Shown: in pieces, positions 5,746 through 38,881 of the stretch
How positions within the stretch are numbered: the first letter of the stretch is position 1
Layout: the number at the start of each line of letters is the position of its first letter
Assembly: GCA_016860985.1 (NCBI GenBank)
Contig: BOKM01000001.1
Location: 789,857 to 853,856 of the forward strand
Reading direction: 5' to 3'
Length of the DNA: 64,000 nucleotides
Origin: Patescibacteria group bacterium
GTDB taxonomy: Bacteria > Patescibacteriota > Dojkabacteria > GCA-002793355
Program-made: the position numbers and the translations under genes
The notes under the pieces: generated by a model
Told to the model about the DNA's origin: nothing
The model's database searches: none
The model's input: only the letters and a program-made list of their open reading frames with translations

Positions 5746-6825
5746 ATGAAATTATTAGTATTGGTAGCAACCATACTCATAGCTCTCTTCACTCCAACGC
5801 TTGCGTATGCTTCAACTAGCGCGCCTACGGAGGTGACAGCGTTTACCAATGACGCACTTTCAATAGTTACACTTATCTCGGCCGCAGCAGCGGTCTTTTT
5901 TTTAATTCGAGGTGGCTATATCTATATTACTTCAAGTGGGAAACCTGATGCACTTGAAGAGGCAAAGAAAACCATTCGCAACTCATTACTTGGGCTTGTT
6001 ATAGTCCTAGCATCGAGCGGATTAATTTCACTTTTGTCTGGTGCGCTCGTAGGGGAAACTGGAAGCACCAATGTCACAACCCTGCCTATTACTCAGATAG
6101 AAAGTGTGGCTCCAAGCGATGGACTCACTCAAGTGCTGATCGATGCAGTCAACGGCTTTATCCAAAACATTGTTGAGAGTTCCACTAAACCAATAGTTGA
6201 TGGCATTATGACTTTTCTTTCAACCACTCCGTCGCTTCTTGAGAATGCTTCAATTGTTAAATTCTGGCTAATCATGCTCGGGATTACCGATACACTGTTT
6301 GTGCTGGTTGTGGCACTTTTAGGCCTTCAGTTTATGAGTGCTTCCACCTTTGGATTTGAAGAGATTGAATTTAAACATTTACTTCCTCGAATTGGGCTAG
6401 CCTTCTTAGGAGCAAATGTTTCGCTATTCTTGGCTGACTATGCCATCAAAGCTAGCAATGCTTTGGTTTCTGGTGTCATTTCCGCTACTGGAGGACTAAA
6501 TCACGCATGGATTAGTAATGCCGTTACTATCTCAAGTATTACTAACGGTACTGCACCATTTATTATCCTAATTTTCCTACTCATATTTTTGATTGTGGCG
6601 ATTGTGCTACTTCTGATGTATATCAGTCGCTTGATTGTGATCTCACTTGGTGCCGTGCTTTCGCCCTTTATTTTTCTCCTATCAGCAATTCCCAAAACTG
6701 CCGATTTTGCCGAAATGGCAGTTAAAGGATATTTCGTTTCAGTTTTTATGATCTTTGTGCATGTGGTCACGATTCAACTGGCTGGTACTTTTTTAACGCT
6801 TCCAGAGCAAACAAATAATTACTGA
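5746..6825 (+). CDS. VirB2-like N-terminal module fused to a VirB6/TrbL-like polytopic membrane domain
   Basis: N-terminal 100 aa repeat the pilin architecture; C-terminal about 250 aa has at least 5 TM helices. The reading frame continues in-frame past the TGA at 6823-6825 for 68 more codons, to 7030. Confidence 0.5.
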   Translation: MKLLVLVATILIALFTPTLAYASTSAPTEVTAFTNDALSIVTLISAAAAVFFLIRGGYIYITSSGKPDALEEAKKTIRNSLLGLVIVLASSGLISLLSGALVGETGSTNVTTLPITQIESVAPSDGLTQVLIDAVNGFIQNIVESSTKPIVDGIMTFLSTTPSLLENASIVKFWLIMLGITDTLFVLVVALLGLQFMSASTFGFEEIEFKHLLPRIGLAFLGANVSLFLADYAIKASNALVSGVISATGGLNHAWISNAVTISSITNGTAPFIILIFLLIFLIVAIVLLLMYISRLIVISLGAVLSPFIFLLSAIPKTADFAEMAVKGYFVSVFMIFVHVVTIQLAGTFLTLPEQTNNY

Positions 6826-7030
6826 TCTCGGTAGCAGTTGCAATTGGGCTTCTTTTAACCCTACTCAAAATCCCTTCATTCATGATGCAGCTCATCTTAT
6901 TCTCCCGTAGTGTTGGAGCAGTTCGCCACGTTGGGAGTCAAATTACCAATGTGCTTAGTACTGATTCAAGCGCCTCAGCATCATCAAAGGCTGCCAGGTC
7001 GGTTACAACGCCCAGAAAGACCGTACATCT

Positions 7031-7504
7031 ATGAGAACTACAATTATTCCAGCACAAATAACGACTGTTGAGGACAAGATCGCCGGATCACTTAACATGA
7101 CCCAAATCTTGATCCTCATGTTTCCGGTTCTTTGGACTGCGCTCATCTACATTTTGTTTGCGCCTGCCATGAAACTTGTACCCTACAAACTAGGACTCAT
7201 TGGTGTTGTGATCATGATCTGCTTGATTCTAGTTATTCGAATAAAAGACAAAATAGTAGCTGAGTGGCTTGGAGTGGTACTCAGGTATCAATTCCGTCCG
7301 AAGTACTGGCTTTATAACAAAAACGATACAACCAATCGCATTATTGATATTCCTGACATCCCAGATATTGCCGTTATTAAAAGAAAAACAACAAAGAAAG
7401 CATCTAGTGATCAAAAGACCGAAATAAATATTTCTGACCTTGTTCGTCTCGAGCAATTAATCGACTCAGGCAAGGTAGCCGTTCGTTATCAAATGAAAAA
7501 TTAA
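7031..7504 (+). CDS. VirB3/PrgI-like small T4SS membrane protein
   Basis: Two N-terminal TM helices then a hydrophilic tail; sits immediately upstream of VirB4, as VirB3 does. Confidence 0.4.
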   Translation: MRTTIIPAQITTVEDKIAGSLNMTQILILMFPVLWTALIYILFAPAMKLVPYKLGLIGVVIMICLILVIRIKDKIVAEWLGVVLRYQFRPKYWLYNKNDTTNRIIDIPDIPDIAVIKRKTTKKASSDQKTEINISDLVRLEQLIDSGKVAVRYQMKN

Positions 7505-7508
7505 AACT

Positions 7509-8126
7509 ATGAGTATTTTTAGCAAATCTAAAAAATCTAGTAGCCGTCAACAAATCCAGATTAAAGAAGTCGTGGATAATATCCTCGTTCTGCCTAATAA
7601 CGAATATCGGCAAATCCTTGAAACTTCATCAGTCAATTTTGAGCTCAAGAGTGAAGAAGAACAGGATGTGATTATCGATAGCTTTCAAAACTTCTTAAAC
7701 TCACTTCCGCGTGAAATCCAAATACTCGTTCGTGTAAGGGAAGTCGATATTGATCGCTACGTCGAAGATATTGGCAAAACTAAAGATAAAGAAACTATTC
7801 CTGCCTACAAAAAGCAGATTGAGGGCTATTGCTCATTCGTTAAAAAACTTGTTTCAGGTAACAAAATCCTTTCGAGGCGTTTCTACATTGTCATTCCTTA
7901 CAAACACACTGAGCGTCATCAGGACATGAAACTCATCAAAGAACACTTGAACCTTGAGAAGGACATTATTATTAAAGGTTTGGAGAGAATGCAGATGAAA
8001 GCCCGAAGCATAACAGGTCTTGAAATTCTCAATTTATTTTATGGCTTCTACAACCCGGAAAGTTTGAAAACTCAGGCAATTACAAAGGAAACTGTCGAAG
8101 CCTTACTAAAAAACAACTATGTTTAA
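7509..8126 (+). CDS. VirB4-family ATPase, N-terminal fragment (split gene)
   Basis: VLPNNEYRQILETSSVNFELKSEEEQDVII resembles the N-terminal region of Gram-positive VirB4/TraE homologues; 205 + 599 aa = full VirB4 length. Confidence 0.5.
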   Translation: MSIFSKSKKSSSRQQIQIKEVVDNILVLPNNEYRQILETSSVNFELKSEEEQDVIIDSFQNFLNSLPREIQILVRVREVDIDRYVEDIGKTKDKETIPAYKKQIEGYCSFVKKLVSGNKILSRRFYIVIPYKHTERHQDMKLIKEHLNLEKDIIIKGLERMQMKARSITGLEILNLFYGFYNPESLKTQAITKETVEALLKNNYV

Positions 8127-9918
8127 TTTAAAGAAAAAAATCACTAGCCTCAAACCAATTAAAGCGTGGCAAAAGAAGCGCAAGCTCAAGGCCATGACAA
8201 ATCAGGCCGTTAAAATTGCTTTTGGCACGCAAGATCAAGTGGATTTAATCTCTTACGCAGGACTCAAAGAAGAGTCTAGCTATTTGCAGATAAACGACCG
8301 ATTCGTCAGAACTATGTTTGTCTCGGGATACCCTTATGTGGCTTCAACTGGTTGGCTTAATAACCTGATTAACTTTAATCATGATATTGATATCAGCTAC
8401 CACATCGAACAAGTTGATCCTTTAACCGCCCTGCCCAAACTGATTAGAAAAATAACTGAACTAGAATCCACAAAGCGCACCATGCTCAAAGAAGGCAAGG
8501 TTATCGGGAGCGAGATTACTGATCCTCTTGAATCTGCTATGGAGCTTAAAGACAAAATCCAGCGGGGCATGGAGAAGCTGTTCCAAATCTCAATCTATAT
8601 GACGATTGGTGCGGAATCACTCATTGAGCTAAATAAAGTCACTAAACTTTTAGAAACTGTCATGCAGACGAGACTCTTCTACATCAAGCCTGCCACTTTT
8701 CAGCAGATCGAAGGCTTGCAGTCCATTCTCCCCAGAGCTGAGAATAAATTAGCTCAAAAACGTAACCTTGATAGCTCAAGCGCTGCCCTTACTTTTCCTT
8801 TCGTCTCATCTGAACTCGTCCAAGAGTCAGGTATTCTCTATGGCATCAACAAATCCAATAACTCACTGGTGATCATCGACCGCTACTCCTTAAATAATGC
8901 TAACTCGATTATTTTTGCACAATCTGGATCGGGTAAAAGTTATACCGCCAAGGTCGAAATCCTCCGCCACCTCATGCAAGGCACCAAAGTCATCATTATC
9001 GACCCTGAGCGCGAATACAAACAGTTGGCGGCCAGTGTTGGTGGAACATATATCAAACTCTCAGCCACTTCCAAAGAGAAAATTAATCCGTTTCAATTTT
9101 CCCAGCACTCGGTAACGCAAGAGAATAATTTATCTGAACACATTCAGGATTTAACCGAGCTCATTTCCCTCATGGTTGGCTCACTCACCTCAGAGGAGCG
9201 GGCATCGGTTGATCGCGCTCTGCTTCTCACCTACAAAGAGGCCAAGTTAACGCCTCGCAAAAATGCCAAAAAACAAAAAGAAGTTGAATATCCACTACTT
9301 AAGGATTTCTACAAAAACCTCAAAGCCATGAAGCATAAGGATTTATGTGACAGACTTGAGAGATTTGTAAAAGGGTCGCTATCAACCGTCTTTGATTCTC
9401 AAACAAATATTCAATTGGATAACCGCCTGATTGTCTTTGACATTAAAGACTTAAACGAATCCATTAGATCAATCATGATGATGGTGGTGGCCAACTTCGT
9501 AAATAATGAGGTTAAACAAAATCCCCAGAAGCGAATGCTCGTTATTGATGAGGGATGGATACTTCTCCAAGAGCCAGAGAGTGCGAGGTTTATCTCTGGA
9601 TTAGTTCGTCGTGCCAGAAAATATTATCTGGGTGTCACGATTACCTCCCAACAAGCCAACGACTTTCTTAACCAAGACTACGGCAAGGCCATTGCTAGTC
9701 AGTCGTCTCTCCGAATCCTGATGCGCCAAGATACGACCACCATCAAAAAAGTGGCTGATGAGTTCCATTTATCTGCATATGAACAACACTATCTGCTAAC
9801 CTGTGATCGGGGTGAGGCTTTAATTATTGCTGATCAAAACCATGTTGCAGTGAAAATTGTGGCCTCAGAGCAAGAGCATCCACTTCTGACTACTGATCCC
9901 CGGGAAGTCTATATCTAG
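8119..9918 (+). CDS. virB4: VirB4/TraE-family T4SS ATPase (C-terminal about 600 aa)
   Basis: GYPYVASTGWLNNL motif, Walker A AQSGSGKSY, Walker B VIDEGW, conserved C-terminal region. Confidence 0.8.
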   Translation: MFNLKKKITSLKPIKAWQKKRKLKAMTNQAVKIAFGTQDQVDLISYAGLKEESSYLQINDRFVRTMFVSGYPYVASTGWLNNLINFNHDIDISYHIEQVDPLTALPKLIRKITELESTKRTMLKEGKVIGSEITDPLESAMELKDKIQRGMEKLFQISIYMTIGAESLIELNKVTKLLETVMQTRLFYIKPATFQQIEGLQSILPRAENKLAQKRNLDSSSAALTFPFVSSELVQESGILYGINKSNNSLVIIDRYSLNNANSIIFAQSGSGKSYTAKVEILRHLMQGTKVIIIDPEREYKQLAASVGGTYIKLSATSKEKINPFQFSQHSVTQENNLSEHIQDLTELISLMVGSLTSEERASVDRALLLTYKEAKLTPRKNAKKQKEVEYPLLKDFYKNLKAMKHKDLCDRLERFVKGSLSTVFDSQTNIQLDNRLIVFDIKDLNESIRSIMMMVVANFVNNEVKQNPQKRMLVIDEGWILLQEPESARFISGLVRRARKYYLGVTITSQQANDFLNQDYGKAIASQSSLRILMRQDTTTIKKVADEFHLSAYEQHYLLTCDRGEALIIADQNHVAVKIVASEQEHPLLTTDPREVYI

Positions 9919-9920
9919 CT

Positions 9921-10535
9921 ATGAATCCAAAGCTAGTACTTACACTCTGGTCGTTTCGCAAAGAACTTAAATTCGTCCTCCTCGCATTCTTCACTATCCT
10001 CATGCTCCCTGTCATTGCGGTCATTCTACTGACTCAGGTGGGTATAAATATAATCTCTGACAAACTCGTAGATCAAAATGCCACAACTCAGGCCATTCAG
10101 ATCAAAGATCCAACCACTGGTGAGGTAGTAACGGAAATAAACCCCACCGTTGTCTGGCCAACTAAAGGGATAATTACTCTGGAATTTGCACAATCGAGTA
10201 TGTATCAGGTCTTTCACACTGGCATTGATCTCGCCAGCAAGCTTGATGAACCAGTGAATCCTGCTATGGACGGCACTGTTATTTACGCGGGAGAGATATT
10301 CTGGGGTTATGGCAAGCACGTCATTATTGACCACGGCAATAATGTGATGACCATCTATGCCCACCTAAACAAGATTTATGTCTTTAAAGGCCAAAAGGTG
10401 ACCACCAGCGACGTAATCGGTGGCCAAGGTCAAACTGGCTGGGCAACGGGAGTGCATCTTCACTTTCAGGTGAATGTATATGGCATACCAGTGAATCCAA
10501 GGGTGTTTTTAGATAATAAAACCGCTGCTAAGTAG
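9921..10535 (+). CDS. M23 (LytM-type) metallopeptidase with N-terminal TM; T4SS-associated cell-wall hydrolase candidate
   Basis: HTGIDLA ... IDHG ... TIYAHL ... GVHLHFQ M23 signature; start 3 nt after the VirB4 stop. Confidence 0.75.
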   Translation: MNPKLVLTLWSFRKELKFVLLAFFTILMLPVIAVILLTQVGINIISDKLVDQNATTQAIQIKDPTTGEVVTEINPTVVWPTKGIITLEFAQSSMYQVFHTGIDLASKLDEPVNPAMDGTVIYAGEIFWGYGKHVIIDHGNNVMTIYAHLNKIYVFKGQKVTTSDVIGGQGQTGWATGVHLHFQVNVYGIPVNPRVFLDNKTAAK

Positions 10536-10594
10536 AAGCATTTTATTTCGTAACGTACTATAATGATTAAGTACGAATTAGTATCAAAAGTACC

Positions 10595-10777
10595 ATGGTC
10601 ATGGAAGAACTATTAACATTAAAAGAGGCTGCAAATGTCCTCAAAGTACACCCAAACACCTTGAGGGATTGGGATAAAAAAGGGATACTTAAAGCTGTTC
10701 GGATTGGTATCAAAAAAAGCTTAAGATACCGAAAAGAAGATATAGAAAAATTTATTAGTCACAAAAACGGTAAATAA
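10595..10777 (+). CDS. small HTH DNA-binding protein (excisionase/MerR-like HTH_17)
   Basis: LTLKEAANVLKVHPNTLRDWDKKGILKAVRIG is a typical HTH_17 pattern; first gene of the RM operon. Confidence 0.55.
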   Translation: MVMEELLTLKEAANVLKVHPNTLRDWDKKGILKAVRIGIKKSLRYRKEDIEKFISHKNGK

Positions 10778-10779
10778 CT

Positions 10780-12363
10780 ATGACAAATAACAATCAAAAC
10801 ACTACTAAAGAGCAAGAGCGAGCCGAGCTTCACCGAGCCATTTGGCAAATCGCCAATGACTTACGCGGTAGTGTGGATGGTTGGGATTTCAAATCTTACG
10901 TGTTAGGAATGCTTTTTTATCGTTTCATTAGTGAAAACTTGACTAGCTATATCAATGCCGATGAACGACGATCTGGTAAAAAAGATTTTGATTATGCCAA
11001 ACTAACAGATAAAGAGGCAGAATTTGGAAGAACGGACACGGTAAAAGAAAAAGGCTTCTATATCTTGCCGAGCGAACTGTTTATTAACGTTTGCAAAAAT
11101 GCCAGAAATGACAAAAATCTTAACGAAACTCTATCAAAAGTTTTTACCAACATTGAAAACTCTGCAAAGGGATCAGTAAGTGAAGATGATCTTAAAGGTT
11201 TATTTGCCGATTTGGACGTTAATTCTAGCAAGCTTGGAAACACCGTAGAGCATCGCAATCAAAAACTAGTGAAGATTGTTGAGGCTATTGGTAATCTTCG
11301 CCTTGGTAATTACTCTGACAATACAATCGATGCTTTCGGTGATGCCTATGAGTTCTTAATGACCATGTACGCCTCTAACGCAGGTAAATCTGGAGGAGAA
11401 TTCTATACTCCTCAGGAAGTTAGTGAATTACTCGCGGAGATTACTACTGTTGGCAAGAAAGAAGTTAACAAGGTGTACGACCCTGCCTGTGGATCTGGCT
11501 CGCTCCTTCTAAAATTTGCGAAAGTTTTGGGAAGAGAAAATGTTCGTCAAGGTTTCTTTGGTCAAGAAATTAATCTCACTACCTACAATCTTTGTCGTAT
11601 CAACATGTTTCTACACGACATTAACTACAACAATTTTGACGTAGCTCTTGGCGACACACTTATTGATCCTAAACATTGGGATGATGAGCCATTCGATGCG
11701 ATTGTTTCCAATCCTCCCTATTCGATTAGATGGGAAGGTGATGCTAATCCACTTCTGATCAATGATCCTAGATTCTCACCTGCTGGAGTTTTGGCACCAA
11801 AGAGTAAGGCTGACTTGGCCTTTACAATGCATATGCTTTCGTGGCTTTCTACTAGTGGCACGGCTGCAATAGTCGAATTTCCCGGCGTTCTTTATCGAGG
11901 CGGTGCAGAACAGAAAATTAGAAAGTATTTAATTGACAACAACTATGTGGATACAGTGATTCAACTTCCACCAGATTTATTTTTTGGTACGACTATTGCC
12001 ACCTGTATTATCGTGCTAAAGAAAAGCAAAAAAGATAACAAAATTCTATTCATTGATGCATCGGCCGAGTTTGTTCGTAATGGTAATAAAAATAAATTAA
12101 GTGAAACAAATAGACTCAAAATCTTAGAAGCTTTTACATCTCGATCTGATGCAGAGTATTTCGCCAAGCTAGTTGATAGTAAAGATATCGCAATTAATGA
12201 TTACAACATTGCTGTATCAAGTTATGTAACTGCAGAGGACACTCGTGAAGAAATAAACATCACCGAGCTAAATGCAAAGATTAGCCAAATAGTGTCTAGA
12301 CAATCTGAGTTAAGAAAAGCGATCGATGAAATTGTTGAGGATATTGAAGGTGAAAACACATGA
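10780..12363 (+). CDS. hsdM: Type I restriction-modification N6-adenine DNA methyltransferase subunit HsdM
   Basis: GEFYTPQEV motif, SGS AdoMet motif, NPPY catalytic motif (SNPPYSIRW). Confidence 0.9.
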   Translation: MTNNNQNTTKEQERAELHRAIWQIANDLRGSVDGWDFKSYVLGMLFYRFISENLTSYINADERRSGKKDFDYAKLTDKEAEFGRTDTVKEKGFYILPSELFINVCKNARNDKNLNETLSKVFTNIENSAKGSVSEDDLKGLFADLDVNSSKLGNTVEHRNQKLVKIVEAIGNLRLGNYSDNTIDAFGDAYEFLMTMYASNAGKSGGEFYTPQEVSELLAEITTVGKKEVNKVYDPACGSGSLLLKFAKVLGRENVRQGFFGQEINLTTYNLCRINMFLHDINYNNFDVALGDTLIDPKHWDDEPFDAIVSNPPYSIRWEGDANPLLINDPRFSPAGVLAPKSKADLAFTMHMLSWLSTSGTAAIVEFPGVLYRGGAEQKIRKYLIDNNYVDTVIQLPPDLFFGTTIATCIIVLKKSKKDNKILFIDASAEFVRNGNKNKLSETNRLKILEAFTSRSDAEYFAKLVDSKDIAINDYNIAVSSYVTAEDTREEINITELNAKISQIVSRQSELRKAIDEIVEDIEGENT

Positions 12364-14561
12364 CGGACTTAAAGTTAGACATAAAATTAGAAAATTGTTA
12401 TGGGATTAAGAAGCTTGATCATAAGTTTGATTTTTCAAAATGTCATACCTTTGTAATTTATGCTCCAAACGGTGTGATGAAAACATCCTTTGCAAACACT
12501 TTTAAAGACCTTGCCAGTGCCAAAGTACCCTGTGATCGCATCGACGATTCTCTAACACCGATTTGTGAGGTTTTAGATTGTAGTCAAAATACACAGCCTC
12601 AACCTGAATCAATTTGTGTTATTGAACCATATAACGAGAAAGCATTTGACTCTGAGGGGAAGGTGCTTACACTTCTGGCTAACGAAGAAGTTAGAAAAGA
12701 ATATCTTGGTATCTATTCAGAGTTAGATAAGGAAAAACAGTCATTAATTAAAACTCTTAAAAAAGTTTCAAAAAGTAATAACTGTGAGGCGGAATTAGTT
12801 TCGACTTTCTCAACAAGCAAGGAAAACATTTTTGAAGTTTTACTTAAAATAGTAGATGATTCGCGAAAGTCTACAGAAAAATATGATTTCAAATATAACG
12901 TAGTTTTCGACCCGGCAGGAAAAGTTAAGGATTTTCTAAATGAAAATAAAGAACTTTTTACCCAATACTGTGATAAGTACAATGATTTAATCAGTCATTC
13001 TGACTTTTTCGCCAAAAGTGGCGAAACTGTTTTTGGTACATCGGAGGCAAAAAGTCTTAGTGACTCAGTAAAAGGCAACGAGTTCTTTTCTGCTGGACAC
13101 GGATTAAATATAAAAAAATACGGTAGCATTGGTGACAATAAACGATTCAACGAGATAGTAGACGAAGAAATACAGAAGATATTTAACGATAAAGACCTAA
13201 AAGGTATTTTTGACAAAGTTGAGAAAAAGCTTAATGCAAATCAAACCCTTTCCGACTTCAAAAAATTGATAGAGAAAAATCCGGCACTTGTAGTGAAGCT
13301 TGCAGATTACGAACAGTTTAGGAAAGATGCATGGTTCAGCTTTCTCGGTCAAATTATTAATGAGTTGGATAAATTAGTTGCTTTATACATTAGTAAAAAA
13401 ACAGAGATTGAAGATCTTATTAAAAAGGCGAATGAACAACAGTCGAAGTGGGAGGATGCCATTCAAGAATTCAGCGATCGATTCTTCAATATGCCATTTT
13501 CCCTGAGCATAGAAAATAAATCAGACGCAATTCTGAACACACAAACACCAACAATCTCCTTTAAATTTAAAGGGAAGCCCGTCGACAGAAAGAAGATGAT
13601 TGACGTTTTGAGTCAAGGTGAAAAAAGGGCGTTTTATATATTAAATGTGATTTTTGAAGTTAAGTCACGCCAACTTAGTGGTACAAAAACGCTATTTATT
13701 ATCGATGATATAGCAGATTCATTCGACTACAAGAATAAATACGCTATCGTAGAGTATTTGCATGATATTTCCAGAGATCCAAACTTTTACTCTATAGTGA
13801 TGACCCATAACTTTGATCTGTTTCGGACACTTCAATCCCGAGTGTTACAAAATAATAAATGGACTAATTCGCTCATAGCTGAAAAGGTGGCTGATGAGAT
13901 TCGTTTAGTTGATGCTGGAAGTAAAAATATTACTGATCCTTTCTCTTTGTGGAAAAGGGACGTTCACAGTAACGAAAAATACCTTATTGCTTCGATTCCT
14001 TTTGTTCGCAATTTAATCGAATATAAAGATAGTCAAAATATCAGCTATCGTCTATTAACTCACGCACTTCACCAAAAAATGGCAGACCCCGTAAATAGTA
14101 TTAAAGCAACAGACGATATTTCTATAAGTGACTTGGAGCCTATTTTTTTAAGTGTTTTGTCAATCTCGCCTTTTACATATACAGACACATCTAAAAAAAT
14201 TATTGATATTATCGACAAATTGACTACAGATATTGTCAGTGCAGCAGACTCGGATTCAATAGTACTTGAGGATAAAATAATTCTGGCAATTGGATCTAGA
14301 TTGAAAGCTGAAAAATATATGTGGTCTAAGGTAACAGATCAGTCTGAAATTTCTGGAAATCAAACAGGATTATTATTTCGAAGATTTAAAGATGAATTTG
14401 CTAGTGACCAAAGCTACAAAGACAAAATTCGAATACTTGAAAATGTCAACATTATGACTCCAGAAAACATACACCTGAACTCTTTTATGTACGAGCCGAT
14501 CTTAGATATGTCGATAGACGAGTTAAAGCATTTATATGGTGAGGTCAGTAAATTAAATTAA
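12360..14561 (+). CDS. ABC/SMC-type ATPase with degenerate Walker A and long coiled-coil insert (PrrC/RloC- or OLD/PARIS-like topology), embedded in the Type I RM operon
   Basis: N-terminus LDIKLENCYGIKKLDHKFDFSKCHTFVIYAPNGVMKTS parallels the SbcC/Rad50/OLD N-terminus (GPNGSGKST replaced by APNGVMKTS); about 300 aa coiled-coil; ABC signature-like LSQGEKRAF; Walker B LFIIDDI; H-loop-like THN; about 250-aa C-terminal domain of unknown function; start overlaps the hsdM stop (ATGA). Confidence 0.5.
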   Translation: MTDLKLDIKLENCYGIKKLDHKFDFSKCHTFVIYAPNGVMKTSFANTFKDLASAKVPCDRIDDSLTPICEVLDCSQNTQPQPESICVIEPYNEKAFDSEGKVLTLLANEEVRKEYLGIYSELDKEKQSLIKTLKKVSKSNNCEAELVSTFSTSKENIFEVLLKIVDDSRKSTEKYDFKYNVVFDPAGKVKDFLNENKELFTQYCDKYNDLISHSDFFAKSGETVFGTSEAKSLSDSVKGNEFFSAGHGLNIKKYGSIGDNKRFNEIVDEEIQKIFNDKDLKGIFDKVEKKLNANQTLSDFKKLIEKNPALVVKLADYEQFRKDAWFSFLGQIINELDKLVALYISKKTEIEDLIKKANEQQSKWEDAIQEFSDRFFNMPFSLSIENKSDAILNTQTPTISFKFKGKPVDRKKMIDVLSQGEKRAFYILNVIFEVKSRQLSGTKTLFIIDDIADSFDYKNKYAIVEYLHDISRDPNFYSIVMTHNFDLFRTLQSRVLQNNKWTNSLIAEKVADEIRLVDAGSKNITDPFSLWKRDVHSNEKYLIASIPFVRNLIEYKDSQNISYRLLTHALHQKMADPVNSIKATDDISISDLEPIFLSVLSISPFTYTDTSKKIIDIIDKLTTDIVSAADSDSIVLEDKIILAIGSRLKAEKYMWSKVTDQSEISGNQTGLLFRRFKDEFASDQSYKDKIRILENVNIMTPENIHLNSFMYEPILDMSIDELKHLYGEVSKLN

Positions 14562-14567
14562 GCAAAT

Positions 14568-15764
14568 ATGACTAAGCATCAAAGCAGAATAGACCAATTA
14601 ATCACAGAGCTCTGTCGAAATGGCGTGGAATTTAAAGAGTTAGGTGAATTAGGTTATTTTTATGGAGGTCTAACAGGAAAAAGCAAAGAAGATTTTAGTA
14701 ACGGTACGTCAAAATATGTTTCCTATATGAATGTGTATTCAAACATATCTGTAAATATCGAGATTGAGGACTTTGTAAAACTAAATTCCGATGAAAAACA
14801 GAATGCAATTGAATATGGTGATATTTTATTCACTGGTTCATCTGAAACCCCTGATGAATGTGGAATGTCTTCCGTACTGACGACAAAATTATCAGAACCG
14901 TTATATCTAAACAGTTTTTGTTTTGGTTTTCGACTTAACGATGTATCTTTATTTAATCCTGAATTTCTCAAACATCTTTTTAGAGGCAATTATGTCAGAA
15001 AACAGATTGCTAATACCGCAAGTGGCGTTACACGATTTAATGTATCAAAAAAACGTTTTGCAAAAATAAAAATTCCTGTTCCACCACTTGAAATCCAAGA
15101 TGAAATTGTAAATATTCTTAATAAGTTTACAGAGCTAGAATCAGAGCTAGAATCAGAGCTAGAAGCGAGAGTAGAACAGTATGAGTACTATAGAGAAAAT
15201 CTGCTGGATTATAATGCCAATGTTGAACATAAAACTCTTGGTGATTCTTTTTCTATGTTAGCGGGCCATTTCATTTCGGCGAACAATATATCAAATAATC
15301 AAGATGATATTAATCAATATCCCTGCTTCGGTGGCAACGGATTTCGTGGTTATGTGAGCAAAAAAAGTCATGAAGGGAGATATGTGTTGATTGGTAGGCA
15401 GGGTGCTCTTTGTGGGAATACAAAACGTGTTGATGGCAAATTTTATGCGACTGAGCACGCAATTGTGGTTACTCCTAAAAACGACATAGATATTAATTGG
15501 GCATTTCATATGCTGACATATATGAATCTCAACAAATATGCATCAAAATCAGCTCAGCCAGGTCTCGCTGTTGGAAATCTTGAAAAAGTAATGATTAAAG
15601 TACCAAAATTGAGTGAGCAAAGAAGAATTGCGTCAATACTGGATAAATTTGATTCTCTAGTTAATGACATTACAATCGGCCTACCAGCCGAACTTAATGC
15701 CAGACATCAACAATACGAGTATTATCGAAATAAATTGCTAACATTTAAAGAATATGTCGGATAA
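14568..15764 (+). CDS. hsdS: Type I RM specificity subunit HsdS (two target-recognition domains)
   Basis: Two TRDs separated by central conserved helix (LESELESELEARVEQYEYYRENLL) and C-terminal repeat of the same helix (ARHQQYEYYRNKLL). Confidence 0.85.
   Translation: MTKHQSRIDQLITELCRNGVEFKELGELGYFYGGLTGKSKEDFSNGTSKYVSYMNVYSNISVNIEIEDFVKLNSDEKQNAIEYGDILFTGSSETPDECGMSSVLTTKLSEPLYLNSFCFGFRLNDVSLFNPEFLKHLFRGNYVRKQIANTASGVTRFNVSKKRFAKIKIPVPPLEIQDEIVNILNKFTELESELESELEARVEQYEYYRENLLDYNANVEHKTLGDSFSMLAGHFISANNISNNQDDINQYPCFGGNGFRGYVSKKSHEGRYVLIGRQGALCGNTKRVDGKFYATEHAIVVTPKNDIDINWAFHMLTYMNLNKYASKSAQPGLAVGNLEKVMIKVPKLSEQRRIASILDKFDSLVNDITIGLPAELNARHQQYEYYRNKLLTFKEYVG
15132..15167 (+). repeat. 12-bp tandem repeat (GAGCTAGAATCA x2 plus one imperfect copy) inside the hsdS central conserved region
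   Basis: Direct reading; encodes (ELES)2-ELEA. Confidence 0.8.
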
Positions 15765-18700
15765 CAAACATACATACTACAACATGGTCGCGCAAGGCTC
15801 AGAGAGCACTGTGGTGGCTGAATATACTCGAGATGCAAATATGGTACGCGACGTTGGCTACCAAAGTGAGAATGATCTTGAGCAAACATTCATTAAACAA
15901 CTTCAATCTCAGGCATACGAATACGTTTCTATAAAATCCGAAGCAGATTTAATAGCAAATCTTAGACGACAACTAGAGAAGCTTAATAACTATTCCTTCA
16001 GTGATGGTGAGTGGGAAAAGTTTTTCGTTAGCACACTAGCTAACCCTAATCAAAGCATTGTCGAAAAAACCATCACTATTCAAGAAGATTACATTAAGAA
16101 CCTCACTCGCGATGATGGATCAATCAAGAACATTTATCTCATCAAAAAAGACAATATTCACGATAATTTTTTGCAGGTTATTAATCAGTATGCGACTGAG
16201 GATGGGCAACGCTCTAACCGTTACGATGTCACTGTCTTAGTCAATGGCCTCCCATTGGTTCATATTGAACTAAAACGCCGTGGAGTCGCCATTCAGGAAG
16301 CTTTCAACCAGATAAATAGGTATAACCGTGAGAGTTTTTGGGCTTCATCTGGACTCTTCGAATATGTGCAGATTTTTATCATCTCAAACGGTACTCATAC
16401 CAAGTACTACAGCAACACTACCCGCGCCCAGCATGTAAAAGATTCTAGTGAGGGTTCAGCCAAAGTAGGTAAGCGAACCAGTAACAGCTTTGAATTTACG
16501 AGTTGGTGGGCAGATGCTACTAATCGCCCAATTACCGATCTAATGGACTTTGCCAAAACCTTTTTTGCCAAACACACCATTCTCAATATCCTGACTCGCT
16601 ACTGTGTATTTACCACCGATAAGTTGCTTTTGGTGATGCGCCCATACCAAATTGTGGCTACTGAAAGGATTCTAAATAGGATCGAGGTCAGTACCAATTA
16701 TAAAAAAATGGGAACTGTCGAGGCTGGCGGATATATCTGGCATACCACTGGATCAGGAAAAACACTTACCAGCTTTAAAACCGCCCAGTTAGTCAGCAAG
16801 CTTATTGATATTGAAAAAGTAATCTTTGTGGTAGATCGTAAAGATCTGGACTATCAGACCATGCGTGAGTACGACAAATTTGAGAAAGGGGCGGCTAACA
16901 GCAATACCAGCACCGCGATTCTTACGAAACAACTAAGTGATCCAAATGCTCGAATCATAGTCACTACAATCCAGAAACTTGATCGATTTATTAGTCGCAA
17001 TGGTCAGCATGCTATTTTTGATGGTCATGTAGTGCTCATTTTTGACGAATGTCATCGTTCTCAATTTGGCGATATGCATGCCGCCATAACCAAAGCATTC
17101 AATAATTATCACCTGTTTGGATTTACCGGCACGCCAATCTTTGCCATCAACTCTTCATCAGGAGGTCGTCCCGACTTTAAAACCACAGAGCAAGCGTTTG
17201 GTGAAAAGCTTCACACCTACACCATAGTCGATGCTATTGCAGATAAGAATGTTTTACCGTTTAAAGTTGACTACATTTCTACGGTTCGTGAAGCCGAGGA
17301 TATTGAAGATAAAAAAGTGAATGATATCGACCGCGAAGCTATCCTCTCAGCGCCTGAGCGAATATCAAATATTGTCAAATACATTCGTGAACATTTCGAT
17401 CAAAAAACGAAGAGAAATAGTTACTACAAAATAAAAGATCGTCGCCTGGCAGGATTTAACTCAATATTTGCAGTTGCTTCCATTGATGTCGCTAAGAAAT
17501 ATTATTCGGAGTTTAAGAAGCAATTAGAAGGTCTCCCAAGCGACAAACAACTCAAAGTAGCCACTATTTATAGTTTTGGTGTGAACGATGAAGATCTTGA
17601 TGGAATGATCGATGAGAACTCAGAAGATACTGCAGGCCTTGATGTGAGCTCACGCGATTTTTTGGAGAGCGCAATTTCCGACTACAACAGGATGTTTGGG
17701 ACTTCCTACGATACCTCATCCGACAAGTTCCAAAACTACTACAAAGATGTGAGTGAGCGAGTTAAAAACCGAGAAATAGATATCTTGATTGTGGTAAACA
17801 TGTTTTTAACAGGATTTGATGCAACTACGCTCAATACACTTTGGGTCGATAAGAATTTGAGGCTACATGGTCTTCTTCAAGCTTTCTCCCGCACCAATCG
17901 AATACTTAACAGCGTAAAAACGTTCGGTAATATTGTGTGCTTCCGCAACCTAGAAAAGGCTACCAATGAGTCGATCGCCTTGTTTGGTGATAAAGAAGCC
18001 AGTGGTATCGTGTTATTGAAAGCTTATGACGACTACTATCACGGATATAAGGATGGAGATAAGGAAGTCCGTGGCTATGAAAGCTTAGTTAAGGAATTAC
18101 TAGAGAGATTCCCTGTTGGTGAGCGAATACTCGGAGAACAGAACCAAAAAGATTTCGTAAAGTTATATGGAGCAATTTTGCGAGTCCGTAATATATTGTC
18201 TACCTTTGACGAATTTGCTGGTAACGAAATACTAAGCGATCGCGACGTACAGGATTATCACAGTGCCTATATCGATATTTACAATGAATTCCGTAAGTCT
18301 AAAAAAGAAGAAAAGGAAAATGTTAATGAAGATGTAATTTTTGAAATGGAGCTTATCAAGCAAGTCGATATAAATATCGACTATATTCTTGGATTGATTA
18401 AGAAATATCATGAGGATCACACTAAGAACAAAGAATTATTGCTCGATATTAACAAGGCAATTGATTCAAGCGTTGAGCTTCGTAACAAGAAAGATTTAAT
18501 CAACCAGTTTATTGCCTCATTGGATATTCATTCGGTCGTTGATGATGATTGGCAAAAATTTATTGAAGGCAAGAAGGTTGAAGAACTCGAGTCCATAATT
18601 GAATCAGAAGGATTGGATCACGATGCAACATACACCTTTATCAAAAACGCATTCCGTAATGGAAACGTAACAACAACTGGTACTGCAATTACAAATATTT

Positions 18701-18813
18701 TACCTCCTGTATCCCGCTTTTCCCCGACTGGTGAGCGAACAAAAAAGCGTGAGAGTGTGATTGATAAATTGACTAGATTTTTTGAAAGATTTTTCAACAT
18801 ATCTAGTTCTTAA
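15754..18813 (+). CDS. hsdR: Type I RM restriction subunit HsdR (SF2 helicase/endonuclease)
   Basis: Walker A TGSGKT, DECH box (IFDECHRSQFG), helicase C-terminal motifs, 1019 aa; start overlaps the hsdS end. Confidence 0.9.
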   Translation: MSDNKHTYYNMVAQGSESTVVAEYTRDANMVRDVGYQSENDLEQTFIKQLQSQAYEYVSIKSEADLIANLRRQLEKLNNYSFSDGEWEKFFVSTLANPNQSIVEKTITIQEDYIKNLTRDDGSIKNIYLIKKDNIHDNFLQVINQYATEDGQRSNRYDVTVLVNGLPLVHIELKRRGVAIQEAFNQINRYNRESFWASSGLFEYVQIFIISNGTHTKYYSNTTRAQHVKDSSEGSAKVGKRTSNSFEFTSWWADATNRPITDLMDFAKTFFAKHTILNILTRYCVFTTDKLLLVMRPYQIVATERILNRIEVSTNYKKMGTVEAGGYIWHTTGSGKTLTSFKTAQLVSKLIDIEKVIFVVDRKDLDYQTMREYDKFEKGAANSNTSTAILTKQLSDPNARIIVTTIQKLDRFISRNGQHAIFDGHVVLIFDECHRSQFGDMHAAITKAFNNYHLFGFTGTPIFAINSSSGGRPDFKTTEQAFGEKLHTYTIVDAIADKNVLPFKVDYISTVREAEDIEDKKVNDIDREAILSAPERISNIVKYIREHFDQKTKRNSYYKIKDRRLAGFNSIFAVASIDVAKKYYSEFKKQLEGLPSDKQLKVATIYSFGVNDEDLDGMIDENSEDTAGLDVSSRDFLESAISDYNRMFGTSYDTSSDKFQNYYKDVSERVKNREIDILIVVNMFLTGFDATTLNTLWVDKNLRLHGLLQAFSRTNRILNSVKTFGNIVCFRNLEKATNESIALFGDKEASGIVLLKAYDDYYHGYKDGDKEVRGYESLVKELLERFPVGERILGEQNQKDFVKLYGAILRVRNILSTFDEFAGNEILSDRDVQDYHSAYIDIYNEFRKSKKEEKENVNEDVIFEMELIKQVDINIDYILGLIKKYHEDHTKNKELLLDINKAIDSSVELRNKKDLINQFIASLDIHSVVDDDWQKFIEGKKVEELESIIESEGLDHDATYTFIKNAFRNGNVTTTGTAITNILPPVSRFSPTGERTKKRESVIDKLTRFFERFFNISSS

Positions 18814-18822
18814 GGAGAATAT

Positions 18823-20082
18823 ATGAAAAAAATTAAAGTTAGCATTCAAGATGAAAATACACTCATCCTCCTTGAGGATGCCCAAAAAGGCGATCTCATC
18901 GATCTCAAATCTATTCATGAGGCTGATATTGATAAATCTTCAATTGAGTCACTCATCAAATCTATCAAAACCTCGGAATTTAATGCCCAGCTCGAAGCTG
19001 CGAAGCAAAATATTGCTAAACAGAAGGAGCTAGAGGCTGAGATTAAAACAAAGGATATCGTCACCAAAAAGAATGAAGAATTGGCAAAAAAAGATCAGGA
19101 AATTACTACTCTCAACACCAAAATCGAAGGAATAGCTAAACAAGTTGAATCCGATGCGAAAGTAAAGTTACTTGAGGAAAAACAAGCAATTGAGGAAACC
19201 TATCGACAAAAACTTACTGACAAAGATACAGAAATCCAAGAAATCAAACATCAGAAAGAGTTAAGCGAGCAAATATTGCAGGATAAACTCAAGGCAAGCG
19301 AGACATCACTTGTGTCTTTAAAAGAAATGCGATCCCGCATGAGCACCAAAATGATTGGAGAATCTCTTGAGGTTCATTGTGAAAATGAATTTAATAAACT
19401 CCGCCCGCTAGCTTTCCCAAGGGCTCAATTTGGTAAAGATAATGCTGTTTCATCATCTGGTTCAAAAGGTGATTATATTTATCGTGAGTACGACGACGAT
19501 GGCAACGAGATATTGACCATCATGTTTGAGATGAAGAATGAAGATGACTCGACGGCAACCAAGCACAAAAATAAAGACTTTTTTAAGGAACTAGATAAGG
19601 ATCGCCGTGAAAAGAATTGCGAGTATGCGGTTTTGGTGAGTTTACTGGAGAAAGACAACGAGTATTACGATGATATCGTCACCGTCTCTGACTATCCTTT
19701 GATGTACGCAATTCGCCCTCAACACTTTATTACGATTATCGGCTTTTTGCGCCAAGGGAATCTAAAATCACAGGAGTTGCAGAGAAAAATTCAAATTCTC
19801 AAGAATCAAAACATTGATGTAACCAACTTTGAGGCCAACATGAACGCTTTTAAAGATGCGTTCTCAAGAAATTATAACCTTGCGTCAGACCAATTTAGTA
19901 AAGCCATCGAAGAAATTGATAAAACAATTGATCACCTGAATAAGGTAAAAGAAAACTTACTTAAATCTGATAATAATTTGAGATTAGCCAATAACAAAGC
20001 GTCAGAACTTACAGTTAAAAGATTGACAGCGAATAGCCCTAGTGTGGCAAAGGCTTTTGAGGAAAGTGATAAACAACAATAA
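18823..20082 (+). CDS. coiled-coil protein with C-terminal PD-(D/E)xK nuclease-like domain (DUF2130-like)
   Basis: About 170 aa of coiled-coil, then GDYIYREYDDDGNEILTIMFEMKNE, which fits a D...ExK restriction-endonuclease fold. Confidence 0.4.
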   Translation: MKKIKVSIQDENTLILLEDAQKGDLIDLKSIHEADIDKSSIESLIKSIKTSEFNAQLEAAKQNIAKQKELEAEIKTKDIVTKKNEELAKKDQEITTLNTKIEGIAKQVESDAKVKLLEEKQAIEETYRQKLTDKDTEIQEIKHQKELSEQILQDKLKASETSLVSLKEMRSRMSTKMIGESLEVHCENEFNKLRPLAFPRAQFGKDNAVSSSGSKGDYIYREYDDDGNEILTIMFEMKNEDDSTATKHKNKDFFKELDKDRREKNCEYAVLVSLLEKDNEYYDDIVTVSDYPLMYAIRPQHFITIIGFLRQGNLKSQELQRKIQILKNQNIDVTNFEANMNAFKDAFSRNYNLASDQFSKAIEEIDKTIDHLNKVKENLLKSDNNLRLANNKASELTVKRLTANSPSVAKAFEESDKQQ

Positions 20083-20084
20083 AT

Positions 20085-20858
20085 ATGATTCAAAATTCAT
20101 TTAAATCCATTGCAATCAAGATAATCACCGAAGCTGGCAAACCCCTCCATTATCGAGAGATTACTAGGATAGCAACTGAACAGGGATTGCTCAAAACAGA
20201 TGGTAAAACTCCATGGGCAACCATGAACGCTCAGCTTTCAATGGATATTGTTAACAATGGCGAAAATTCTCAATTTTATAGAGCTCAGCCAGGATATTTT
20301 GGCTTACGAGAGCTTGGAGTCACTACTACATCAACGATTAAAAAATCATTAACCTATGTTGTAGCCAAGCATAAAGTAACTGATTCTCTCAATACCAAGC
20401 AAAAAGGTGATATTGCGGAAGCTAGAGTTGCAGAATTGCTCACACTCTACGGTGATGAGGGCTTAAGCTGTTACCGCCCAATTAGTGATGATGAGGGTAT
20501 CGATATTATCGCTAAGCGTCGTGAAAAACTTGAAGTCGCATATATCCAAGTCAAATCCAGTTACGGATATAAAGATCGAGGTTTTGTTTCCTCGGTTAGA
20601 GAAAAGCAAATTGTCAACAAAGAACGTATGATTTTAGTTTTTGTTTATTTTGACCTCTCAGAAGGCGATTTATTTGACCAAGTATTTTGTATCCCCGCCC
20701 CAGACTTCTTGCAACTGACTGCAAATGAAGATAAAAAGCCCGGGGAGCGTGTCTTCACTGTTGGGCTACGTAACCCTGATAAATCTAAATATGCTGAGTT
20801 TATGATCGAGAAGCGAGAGCTTGCGAATCGAATTATTGAAATTATGGATAAACTGTAA
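20085..20858 (+). CDS. HARE-HTH domain fused to Mrr-like PD-(D/E)xK restriction-endonuclease catalytic domain
   Basis: N-terminus SIAIKIITEAGKPLHYREITRIATEQGLLKTDGKTPWATMNAQLSMDI matches HARE-HTH; C-terminus DDEGIDIIAKR ... AYIQVKS matches the Mrr_cat GDGGIDG ... QCK motifs. Confidence 0.6.
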   Translation: MIQNSFKSIAIKIITEAGKPLHYREITRIATEQGLLKTDGKTPWATMNAQLSMDIVNNGENSQFYRAQPGYFGLRELGVTTTSTIKKSLTYVVAKHKVTDSLNTKQKGDIAEARVAELLTLYGDEGLSCYRPISDDEGIDIIAKRREKLEVAYIQVKSSYGYKDRGFVSSVREKQIVNKERMILVFVYFDLSEGDLFDQVFCIPAPDFLQLTANEDKKPGERVFTVGLRNPDKSKYAEFMIEKRELANRIIEIMDKL

Positions 20859-38119: not shown

Positions 38120-38881
38120 ATGAAAAAACAAATACTTATTGTCGCGAGTGCAGTGGTATTCTCCCTCACCCCGATATCAATCGTTCATGCCCAGGATTCG
38201 ACACCAACTCCGACCACAACAGTATCAGTAACACCTACACCAACAAGAGCCAGAGCACAAAATCAGTTCCAAGAAAGGATCGATGCGGCAAAAGCGGCTT
38301 CACTTGAGAAGGCAAAGACAATCGCTCTCAATATTTTTGATAAGCATTTTTTGAACAAATTGAACGAATTGAGAGCCAAGGTTTCCGCAAACACAATGAT
38401 TGGTGATGAGGCAAAACAAGCGATGCTCGCCAAAATTGATCAAGAACTTACATGGTTTACTGAAAAGAAAAATGCAGTTTCTGCTGCCACTACAATTCCT
38501 GCAATTCGAACAATCGTAAAAGATGCACGTGTTCGCTTCTTACAATTAGGAAAAGAACTGAGAAGGCTCCATATTGCAAAAGGATTTGTAACTTCACTTG
38601 AAAAAGTTATTACCAATATTGAAAAGAATATCCTCCCGAAAGTCGAAGAAAAACTAAATGAGCTTTCGGCAAAAGGTGTGGATATCACTGCCGAAAACGC
38701 TTTACTTGCAAAAGCAAAAACAGAACTAGCAGCTGCAAAAACAGAACTGGCAGAGATCAGAAATAGTACAACCTACGAGATCGCCAAAAAGAATTATGAC
38801 GAAGCGAAAGAGCATTTAAAGAATGTGCGAGTAGTTTTGCGCCAAATTCTTGAAAACCTAAAAGCAAAGATCTCGGTTTAA
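38120..38881 (+). CDS. secreted coiled-coil protein
   Basis: Signal peptide ending VHA-QD; heptad-rich. Confidence 0.4.
   Translation: MKKQILIVASAVVFSLTPISIVHAQDSTPTPTTTVSVTPTPTRARAQNQFQERIDAAKAASLEKAKTIALNIFDKHFLNKLNELRAKVSANTMIGDEAKQAMLAKIDQELTWFTEKKNAVSAATTIPAIRTIVKDARVRFLQLGKELRRLHIAKGFVTSLEKVITNIEKNILPKVEEKLNELSAKGVDITAENALLAKAKTELAAAKTELAEIRNSTTYEIAKKNYDEAKEHLKNVRVVLRQILENLKAKISV

What the first reader, a model, noticed from the sequence alone, without database searches (positions are those of the whole stretch)
15132..15167. 12-bp tandem repeat in the hsdS central conserved region, a possible specificity-switching repeat
GAGCTAGAATCA is present as two perfect copies plus a third imperfect one. 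It encodes (ELES)2-ELEA exactly in the spacer helix that sets the distance between the two TRDs. In the EcoR124I/EcoR124II pair, a change from 2 to 3 copies of a 12-bp (TAEL) repeat in the same place changes the recognition-site spacer by 1 bp. Slipped-strand gain or loss here would therefore alter the specificity of this RM system.
Basis: partly seen in the sequence, partly recalled or inferred. Interest (0 to 1): 0.55.

Follow-up and report, generated by a model that had tools for sequence, protein, structure and literature searches.

The report
Type IC hsdS spacer-setting 12-bp repeat
The 12-bp repeat is real and is the well-known four-amino-acid "ruler" repeat of a Type IC restriction enzyme's specificity subunit; relatives show that gaining or losing a unit is common, so this is an ordinary new example of a known specificity-changing device.

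Summary
GAGCTAGAATCA occurs twice perfectly (15132-15155), followed by a 10/12 copy (15156-15167). It is in frame in hsdS and encodes ELES-ELES-ELEA. The locus is an intact Type IC system (the HsdR carries the EcoR124_C domain). The repeat aligns without gaps to the TAEL repeats of EcoR124 HsdS and sits in the middle of a 40-residue central helix in a confident AlphaFold model. The linker length (16 aa) equals the two-TAEL EcoR124I state.

In 51 related loci and 120 homologous proteins the linker comes almost only in steps of 4 aa (12, 16 or 20), while the partner C-terminal linker is almost always 20 aa. Units are identical within a locus but use different synonymous codons between loci, which indicates repeat turnover. 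Near-identical natural alleles differ by exactly one unit. One metagenomic hsdS carries the same rare Ser-type units plus one extra unit.

No copy-number variant of this particular allele was found, and rapid phase variation is neither shown nor expected for about 3 units. The feature is a textbook hallmark of Type IC HsdS (TAEL, LEAT and similar repeats). It is therefore a new member of a known kind, here in a Patescibacteria genome.

The parts
10780..12363 (+). hsdM, the Type I m6A methyltransferase subunit (527 aa)
   Evidence: Pfam N6_Mtase 1.1e-113 and HsdM_N. TIGR00497 hsdM is matched full length at 6.4e-229. Motifs DPACGSG and NPPY are present.
12360..14561 (+). 733-aa SMC/RecF-like ATPase inserted between hsdM and hsdS. 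It matches the PADLOC defence candidate PDC-S46 and is an accessory gene, not part of the repeat mechanism.
   Evidence: PADLOC PDC-S46 at E=1.5e-235, full length. Weak SMC_N and RecF hits. The same gene at >=90% identity sits in the same position in loci L082-L093.
14568..15764 (+). hsdS, the specificity subunit (398 aa): TRD1, central helix, TRD2, C-terminal helix
   Evidence: Pfam Methylase_S with two stretches, 3.1e-39. EcoR124 HsdS 7bst_A at 1.3e-27. AlphaFold model pLDDT 92.2. Foldseek top hits are all HsdS structures, including 7bst_A.
15087..15206 (+). central conserved helix (residues 174-213) that spaces the two TRDs
   Evidence: DSSP on the AlphaFold model gives a single helix H174-213. 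The underlying DNA block of about 110 bp is conserved across loci whose TRDs differ.
15130..15167 (+). 12-bp tandem array with units at 15132-15143, 15144-15155 and 15156-15167, encoding ELES-ELES-ELEA. The perfect period-12 tract is 15130-15164.
   Evidence: The homologous arrays in 55 loci are listed.
15609..15737 (+). C-terminal conserved helices (residues 348-390), inferred to pair with the central helix. The 20-aa linker, ILDKF to QY, does not vary in length in almost all relatives.
   Evidence: Helices H348-366 and H371-390. The C-terminal linker is 20 aa in 36 of 37 related loci and in 130 of 138 protein hits. The pairing itself comes from the literature on HsdS crystal structures, not from a measurement on this model.
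15754..18813 (+). hsdR, the Type IC restriction/translocase subunit (1019 aa). Its start overlaps the end of hsdS by 11 nt.
   Evidence: Pfam HSDR_N, SWI2_SNF2/ResIII, T1R_D3-like and EcoR124_C (7.9e-68). TIGR00348. GSGKT and DECH motifs.

Best explanation
The array is the tetra-amino-acid tandem repeat of the central conserved region of a Type IC HsdS. It forms part of the long helix that, according to published HsdS structures, pairs with the C-terminal helix in an antiparallel coiled coil and sets the distance and twist between the two target-recognition domains.

The present state has a 16-aa linker, the same as two-TAEL EcoR124I. It therefore predicts a bipartite target with the shorter, N6-type separation of the two methylated adenines. 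This step is inferred.

Because the units are identical at the DNA level, rare unequal crossing-over or replication slippage can add or remove one 12-bp unit (4 aa). By analogy with EcoR124I/II and NgoAV, that would change the spacer by 1 bp and create a new restriction and methylation specificity. This step is also inferred.

The comparative data show that such unit gain and loss has happened repeatedly in this family, and in the lineage of this array. That makes it an evolutionary specificity dial, not a fast on/off switch.
For: Shown:
- The repeat is real and in frame.
- The system is an intact Type IC M/S/R set.
- The repeat aligns gap-free with the EcoR124 TAEL repeats and the linker length is identical.
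- The repeat lies inside helix 174-213 of a model with pLDDT 92.
- In 52 hsdS genes next to HsdM proteins >=80% identical to the window's, the central linker is 12 aa (1), 16 aa (27, including the window), 17 aa (1) or 20 aa (23). The C-terminal linker is 20 aa in 36 of 37.
- In the 120 best protein hits the central linker is 12 (4), 16 (86) or 20 (24) aa.
- Units differ by a mean of 0.69 nt within an array and 2.45 nt between loci. None of 2000 permutations reached the observed value, so the arrays evolve in concert.
- The closest loci (PDC-S46 >=90% identical) carry GAGCTAGAAGCA three times. The window has the same G>T (Ala>Ser) change in both of its first two units, which implies that a mutated unit was duplicated or converted.
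- L094 and its sibling P0162 carry the same two Ser-type units plus two Ala-type units, with a 20-aa linker and different TRDs. The DNA alignment shows a clean 12-bp indel.
- Two near-identical natural allele pairs differ by one unit. P0077 and P0210 are 98% identical and their only gap is KELE. P0016 and P0189 are 96% identical and differ by a 4-aa (ELTA) unit plus a 13-aa gap.

From the literature:
- Two versus three TAEL units give N6 versus N7, by unequal crossing-over (PMC3874165).
- Tandem tetra-aa repeats are described as characteristic of Type IC HsdS (PMC10030836).
Against: - No variant of this specific allele exists in the 15-billion-protein collection. Its 90% cluster has one member and the next best hit is 64% identical, so switching at this locus itself is unobserved.
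- The recognition sequence and its spacer were not measured.
- Spacer length also depends on the TRDs, so N6 is a prediction only.
- About 3 units of 12 bp is a short substrate, so the rate of change is probably low.
- The homogeneity of the units could owe as much to recombination between alleles, with the conserved central block acting as a crossover site for TRD shuffling, as to slippage within one gene.
Confidence: 0.85

Rival explanations
1. It is a fast, reversible phase-variable (contingency) locus. Slipped-strand mispairing would change the unit number at high frequency within a clonal population, giving mixed methylation specificities, as in a phasevarion.
For: The tract is a perfect 35-bp tandem repeat. 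Several short-read contigs of related loci end inside the array (L085, L089-L092), which would fit co-existing array lengths in those samples. Atack et al. 2020 raise the idea for repeats near the TAEL tract.
Against: There are only 2.9 units, whereas classical contingency tracts are much longer. Independent assemblies carrying this hsdS give the identical protein. Three samples with the L082 allele all show the same unit number. The contig breaks are equally explained by different hsdS genes in one community sharing the same conserved array. No read-level data are available.
Confidence: 0.1
2. It is a static structural periodicity. The helix simply needs an (E-L-E-A/S)n pattern for the coiled coil, and the DNA repeat is a by-product with no ongoing change in number or specificity.
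For: The xLxx periodicity is conserved at the protein level across the whole family. Most members sit in one class, with 16 aa in 86 of 114.
Against: Protein-level selection does not explain identical synonymous codons within arrays that differ between loci. It also does not explain linker lengths falling almost only in steps of 4 aa, the pairs that are 96-98% identical yet differ by one unit, or the shared Ala>Ser change in two units.
Confidence: 0.04
3. The copy number in the window is an assembly artefact, through collapse or expansion of a tandem repeat.
For: Tandem repeats close to the k-mer length are error-prone, and related contigs break in the array.
Against: A 35-bp perfect tract with period 12 contains no repeated 31-mer, so it assembles unambiguously. 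This is my own reasoning. The identical 398-aa protein is found on an NCBI contig of 1,051,512 bp and on a Logan contig of 204,776 bp.
Confidence: 0.01

Closest known systems
EcoR124I / EcoR124II (Type IC, E. coli plasmid R124): 12-bp TAEL repeat in the hsdS central conserved region
   Same: The family is the same: HsdR has the EcoR124_C domain, and EcoR124 HsdS is the best PDB sequence hit. The repeat occupies the same position and has the same 12-bp/4-aa period and the same 16-aa linker length as the two-repeat state. The proposed mechanism, unit gain or loss by unequal crossing-over that changes the spacer by 1 bp, is the same (PMC3874165).
   Different: The unit is ELES/ELEA (GAGCTAGAA[T/G]C[A/G]), not TAEL. 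Gene order is M, PDC-S46, S, R, with an accessory gene inserted. The host is an uncultured Patescibacteria bacterium. The TRDs are unrelated in sequence to those of EcoR124 (one search aligns only the conserved regions). No switched variant of this allele is known.
NgoAV of Neisseria gonorrhoeae (Type IC; LEAT/EATL repeats)
   Same: It has a tetra-amino-acid repeat in the central region. Natural strains differ in repeat number, and this, in combination with a downstream frameshift that truncates hsdS, relates to N6 versus N7 spacers (PMC6789123). This is the population-level pattern predicted here, and it is seen here between related alleles.
   Different: The NgoAV specificity change involves a downstream frameshift as well as repeat number. 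No such frameshift tract is seen in this hsdS, which is full length with two TRDs.
Tetra-amino-acid repeats of Type IC HsdS in general (TAEL, LEAT, SEAL, TSEL; Adamczyk-Poplawska et al. 2003, as cited in PMC10030836)
   Same: The window's ELES/ELEA array fits the general description: tandem 4-aa repeats in the central conserved region, with two and three repeats corresponding to 6- and 7-bp spacers.
   Different: The LEAE/ELEA-type unit, and especially the Ser variant (ELES), is not among the four named motifs. Within the data here, ELES was seen only in the window, in L094/P0162 and once in L025.
Simple-sequence-repeat phase-variable hsdS/hsdM genes (Atack et al. 2020, PMC7383803)
   Same: A repeat inside a Type I specificity gene whose length change alters the methylation outcome.
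   Different: Those are longer tracts of short repeat units that mostly shift the reading frame, switching expression on or off or truncating the protein. Here the unit is 12 bp and in frame, there are about 3 copies, and a change would alter spacing, not expression (notes that tracts divisible by three were not analysed in that survey).

Membership tests
Type IC restriction-modification (EcoR124 family) | HsdR of the EcoR124 type (C-terminal EcoR124_C domain together with HSDR_N, SF2 motor and domain 3) | tested here: met
   PF12008 EcoR124_C at 7.9e-68, covering 1-260 of 260 profile positions, plus PF04313, PF18766 and PF22679. PADLOC REase_I PDLC03048 scores 1186 bits.
Type IC restriction-modification (EcoR124 family) | HsdS conserved regions (central and C-terminal) homologous to those of EcoR124 HsdS | tested here: met
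   phmmer against the PDB gives 7bst_A at E=1.3e-27. The aligned stretches are exactly the central (residues 166-241) and C-terminal (300-394) conserved regions.
Type IC restriction-modification (EcoR124 family) | [quoted passage not shown] | tested here: met
   ELES-ELES-ELEA at residues 189-200, encoded by the 12-bp tandem array. It aligns column for column with TAEL-TAEL.
Type IC restriction-modification (EcoR124 family) | HsdS fold: two TRDs joined by two long helices | tested here: met
   AlphaFold model with pLDDT 92.2 has helix 174-213 and helices 348-390. Foldseek hits to HsdS structures are at E 1e-15 to 1e-21, including 7bst_A. The antiparallel coiled-coil packing of the two helices was not measured on this model; it is taken from published HsdS structures.
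Type IC restriction-modification (EcoR124 family) | Subunit complementation or antibody cross-reaction with EcoR124/EcoDXXI subunits (the classical criterion for a Type I family; this rests on my own knowledge, not on a source read here) | not testable with these tools
   This requires genetics or biochemistry.
Type IC restriction-modification (EcoR124 family) | Repeat number sets the spacer of a bipartite recognition sequence | not testable with these tools
   No methylome is available. This is inferred from PMC3874165, PMC6789123 and PMC10030836. Comparative support comes from linker lengths of 12, 16 and 20 aa.
Phase-variable (contingency) repeat locus | A repeat tract long enough for high-frequency slippage | tested here: not met
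   There are only 2.9 perfect units (35 bp). Relatives have 2-4 units and never more.
Phase-variable (contingency) repeat locus | Tract-length heterogeneity within a strain or population for the same allele | tested here: inconclusive
   The 90% cluster of this HsdS has a single member. The same protein is found in the independent assemblies. No reads are available. Near-identical alleles differing by one unit do exist elsewhere in the family.

The most novel reading that the evidence does not exclude
The array may be an actively turning-over specificity dial in a Patescibacteria (CPR) population. Deep or long-read data would then show co-existing 12-, 16- and 20-aa linker variants of this same hsdS, with N5, N6 and N7 methylation motifs. 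More broadly, this very widely transferred Type IC lineage (HsdM 80-95% identical from CPR bacteria to Bacteroidota and archaea) may keep the 16- and 20-aa states at roughly equal frequency as a maintained polymorphism.
Probability: 0.15. Interest if true: 0.45.

Novelty: new member of a known kind. Interest (0 to 1): 0.25.

Why it matters
For annotation, the repeat allows a concrete prediction: a bipartite Type I target with the shorter, EcoR124I-like spacing, and one-step neighbours at plus or minus 1 bp. It also flags a position where assemblies and strain comparisons of this locus should be read with care. For biology, it adds a CPR/Patescibacteria example and a clean comparative data set for a mechanism known mainly from E. 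coli plasmids and Neisseria. That data set shows linker lengths in steps of 4 aa, concerted evolution of units, and allele pairs differing by one unit. It does not reveal a new mechanism.

Tried and rejected
1. A protein search with only the 68-aa central region, meant to fish out other alleles with ELES units, returned 7 candidates and one weak hit. It did not even recover the query's own protein, so it was uninformative.
2. A search of the plasmid collection with the hsdS DNA gave only 60-80% partial TRD matches in Enterobacteriaceae and Moraxella plasmids. No close relative was found.
3. The exact-pattern scan of metagenome contigs for two Ser-type units gave 9 loci. Only L094 is an hsdS. 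The others are unrelated acidic ELESELE-coding or non-coding repeats.
4. I looked for extra hsdS genes or half-genes in the window that could indicate a shufflon or inversion system. None were found: the HsdS motifs occur only in 14568-15764.
5. I considered reading in-sample heterogeneity from contigs that end inside the array (L085, L089-L092). I rejected this as evidence because co-occurring different hsdS genes that share the conserved array would break a k=31 graph in the same way.
6. I considered whether the window's third unit, GAGCTAGAAGCG, is a crossover chimera of L094's third and fourth units (GAGCTAGAAGCA and GAGCTGGAGGCG). It fits, but a single synonymous A>G change explains it equally well, so it is not claimed.
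7. My first regex for classifying linkers mislabelled TAEL arrays as C-terminal. This was corrected.

Full report
**1. Observation.**
Reading window 14400-16200 shows GAGCTAGAATCA at 15132-15143 and again at 15144-15155, followed by GAGCTAGAAGCG (10/12) at 15156-15167. Because the preceding CA also fits the period, the perfect period-12 tract is 35 bp long (15130-15164). Tandem Repeats Finder reports 15130-15176, period 12, 3.9 copies, 91% matches.

A two-unit pattern allowing up to 2 mismatches occurs only here, with 0 matches in 100 dinucleotide-preserving shuffles. This is also the only perfect tandem run of period 4-30 in the whole 64-kb window. The array is in frame in the ORF 14568-15764 and encodes ELES-ELES-ELEA, residues 189-200.

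**2. What the gene and locus are.**
- The ORF is an HsdS with two Methylase_S stretches.
- Upstream lies a full-length hsdM at 10780-12363 (TIGR00497 at 6.4e-229, with the DPACGSG and NPPY motifs).
- Downstream, overlapping by 11 nt, lies a full-length hsdR at 15754-18813 with HSDR_N, the SF2 motor, domain 3 and the EcoR124_C domain (7.9e-68). It carries GSGKT and DECH motifs.
- A 733-aa ATPase at 12360-14561 is inserted between hsdM and hsdS. It matches the PADLOC defence candidate PDC-S46 over its full length.
- There is only one hsdS in the window and no spare half-genes.
- The host is an uncultured Patescibacteria-group bacterium. Neighbouring proteins cluster at >=90% identity with proteins named 'Patescibacteria group bacterium', and the sequence sits on a 1.05-Mb contig.

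**3. Position of the repeat in the protein.**
The best solved relative by sequence is the EcoR124 HsdS (7bst_A, E=1.3e-27). FTELESELESELEARVEQYEYYR aligns without gaps to FTALTAELTAELNMRKKQYNYYR. The ELES units therefore occupy exactly the TAEL columns, and the linker from the conserved F to QY is 16 aa in both. The PDB chain is labelled EcoR124II, but its sequence shows two TAEL units, which is the EcoR124I state as described by Loenen et al. 2014.

An AlphaFold model built on 60 homologues (mean pLDDT 92.2) puts residues 174-213 in one continuous helix. Residues 348-366 and 371-390 form the C-terminal helices. Foldseek finds the HsdS structures, including 7bst_A.

**4. Comparative evidence that unit number changes.**
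- **Related loci.** A genome-collection scan with HsdM returned 80 loci with HsdM 80-95% identical to the window's. They come from Patescibacteria, Bacteroidota, Gammaproteobacteria, Omnitrophota and even archaeal bins. In the 51 loci where hsdS could be read, the central linker is 12 aa (1 locus), 16 aa (26, plus the window), 17 aa (1) or 20 aa (23). The C-terminal linker is 20 aa in 36 of 37.
- **Protein hits.** The 120 best protein hits give central linkers of 12 (4), 16 (86) and 20 (24) aa. The length therefore changes in steps of one 4-aa unit, and essentially only in the central helix.
- **Concerted evolution.** At the DNA level each locus has its own synonymous spelling of the unit (GAATTAGAGGCA, GAGCTGGAAGCG, GAACTCGAAGCA, GAATTGGAAGCT and others), but the units within a locus are mostly identical. 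The mean difference is 0.69 nt within arrays and 2.45 nt between loci, and 0 of 2000 permutations reached the observed value. This is the signature of recurrent unit duplication, loss or conversion.
- **TRD type and linker class are uncoupled.** Pairs with both TRDs about 65-72% identical have different linkers: L030/L035 (12 vs 16), L016/L061 (16 vs 20) and L052/L071 (20 vs 16).
- **Near-identical pairs.** Inside single 90%-identity protein clusters I found natural EcoR124I/II-like pairs. P0077 and P0210 are 98% identical over 430 aa, and their only gap is one KELE unit. P0016 and P0189 are 96% identical and differ by a 4-aa (ELTA) unit and a 13-aa gap.

**5. History of this particular array.**
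Loci whose PDC-S46 protein is >=90% identical to the window's (L082-L093) have the same gene order. Their central DNA block is almost the same, but with GAGCTAGAAGCA three times.

The window differs by the same G>T change (Ala>Ser) in both of its first two units. Two independent identical hits are unlikely, so a mutated unit was most likely copied, which means the array has turned over.

An exact-pattern scan of metagenome contigs found one further hsdS, L094 11407-12630 on a 163-kb contig, with a >=90% sibling P0162 from another sample. It carries the same two Ser-type units followed by two Ala-type units (ELES-ELES-ELEA-ELEA, 20-aa linker) between different TRDs. The DNA alignment shows a clean 12-bp indel in an otherwise conserved block. 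The Ser-type array thus exists in at least two length states in nature.

**6. What is not shown.**
This HsdS allele is unique in the 15-billion-protein collection. Its cluster has one member and the next hit is 64% identical. The assemblies that carry it agree with each other. There is therefore no direct evidence for heterogeneity at this locus, and no methylome.

Several short-read contigs of related loci stop inside the array. This could reflect co-existing array lengths, but it is equally expected when different hsdS genes in a community share the conserved block. I do not count it as evidence.

With only about 3 units the change rate is probably low. The literature describes the EcoR124 change as unequal crossing-over.

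**7. Mechanism, with steps marked.**
- Shown: the array is a Type IC central-helix repeat, and unit number has varied repeatedly among close relatives and within this array's lineage.
- Inferred from EcoR124I/II and NgoAV (PMC3874165, PMC6789123, PMC10030836): each unit changes the spacer by 1 bp; the present 16-aa state corresponds to the shorter, N6-type spacing; gain or loss of one unit would create a new specificity. This matters for a mobile restriction system facing phages and plasmids.

**8. Comparison with known systems, and novelty.**
Tandem tetra-amino-acid repeats (TAEL, LEAT, SEAL, TSEL) are described as a characteristic of Type IC HsdS that sets spacer length. The Atack et al. 2020 survey discusses the same point. 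All sequence-testable membership features of Type IC are met.

The finding is therefore a correct recognition of a known device in a new host, with a slightly different unit (ELEA/ELES). It is a new member of a known kind. Interest is low to modest. The comparative data set (linker lengths in steps of 4 aa, concerted evolution, one-unit allele pairs, very wide transfer) is tidy supporting material, not a surprise.

Noticed in passing
window 12360-14561 (+): A 733-aa SMC/RecF-like ATPase is inserted between hsdM and hsdS and overlaps the end of hsdM by 4 nt. It matches the PADLOC defence candidate PDC-S46 full length (E=1.5e-235). The same gene at >=90% identity sits in the same place in 11 related contigs. 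Other relatives have no insert or different inserts there: hsdS starts about 0.5 to 3 kb after hsdM in the genome loci, and L094 has 341-aa and 704-aa genes instead.
   Followed up: partly
window 18823-20858 (+): A DUF2130 protein (419 aa) and a HARE-HTH plus PD-(D/E)XK-like protein (257 aa) directly follow hsdR. The same S, R, DUF2130, HARE-HTH order is found in L082, which suggests an extended module linked to the restriction system. Neither protein hits PADLOC.
   Followed up: partly
window 5746-10777 (+): Just upstream of hsdM lie genes for a T4SS-pilin-like protein, a TraC-like protein, a VirB4/TraG-type P-loop ATPase (8119-9918), an M23 peptidase (9921-10535) and a 60-aa HTH_17/MerR-like protein (about 10595-10777). 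The restriction locus therefore sits next to a conjugation-like module in a Patescibacteria genome. The small HTH gene is also present upstream of hsdM in L088 and could be a controller protein.
   Followed up: no
loci L002-L081: HsdM proteins 80-95% identical to the window's occur in bins assigned to Patescibacteria, Bacteroidota, Gammaproteobacteria, Planctomycetota, Omnitrophota, Spirochaetia and several archaea (GW2011_AR18, Methanosarcinales, SCGC AAA252-I15). This indicates unusually wide and recent horizontal spread of this Type IC lineage, or some bin contamination.
   Followed up: no
L085, L089, L090, L091, L092 (contig ends): Five of eleven short-read contigs carrying the related locus terminate inside the 12-bp array. 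A 3-unit array has no repeated 31-mer, so the breaks imply another sequence in the same sample that shares the array: either a different hsdS gene or a length variant. Reads would be needed to decide.
   Followed up: partly
window 12001-16000: G+C is 0.344 across the PDC-S46 and hsdS genes, against about 0.40-0.45 in most of the window. This is consistent with these variable parts being exchanged independently of hsdM and hsdR.
   Followed up: no
window 51301-51423 (+), within ORF 50669-51565: There are degenerate tandem repeats of period 12/18/30/36 rich in ACC/CCA/ACG codons, probably a Thr/Pro-rich linker in a 298-aa protein. Two further repeats were seen: a 21-bp repeat of 1.9 copies at 38714-38753 and a 24-bp repeat of 2.0 copies at 17000-17045 inside hsdR.
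   Followed up: no
proteins P0002, P0005, P0007, P0058, P0102-P0115: Many homologues are about 600-aa HsdS proteins with three TRDs and three conserved QYEYYR helices. These resemble the 'extended' HsdS noted by Atack et al. 2020. In them only the first helix carries the variable tetra-aa repeat.
   Followed up: no
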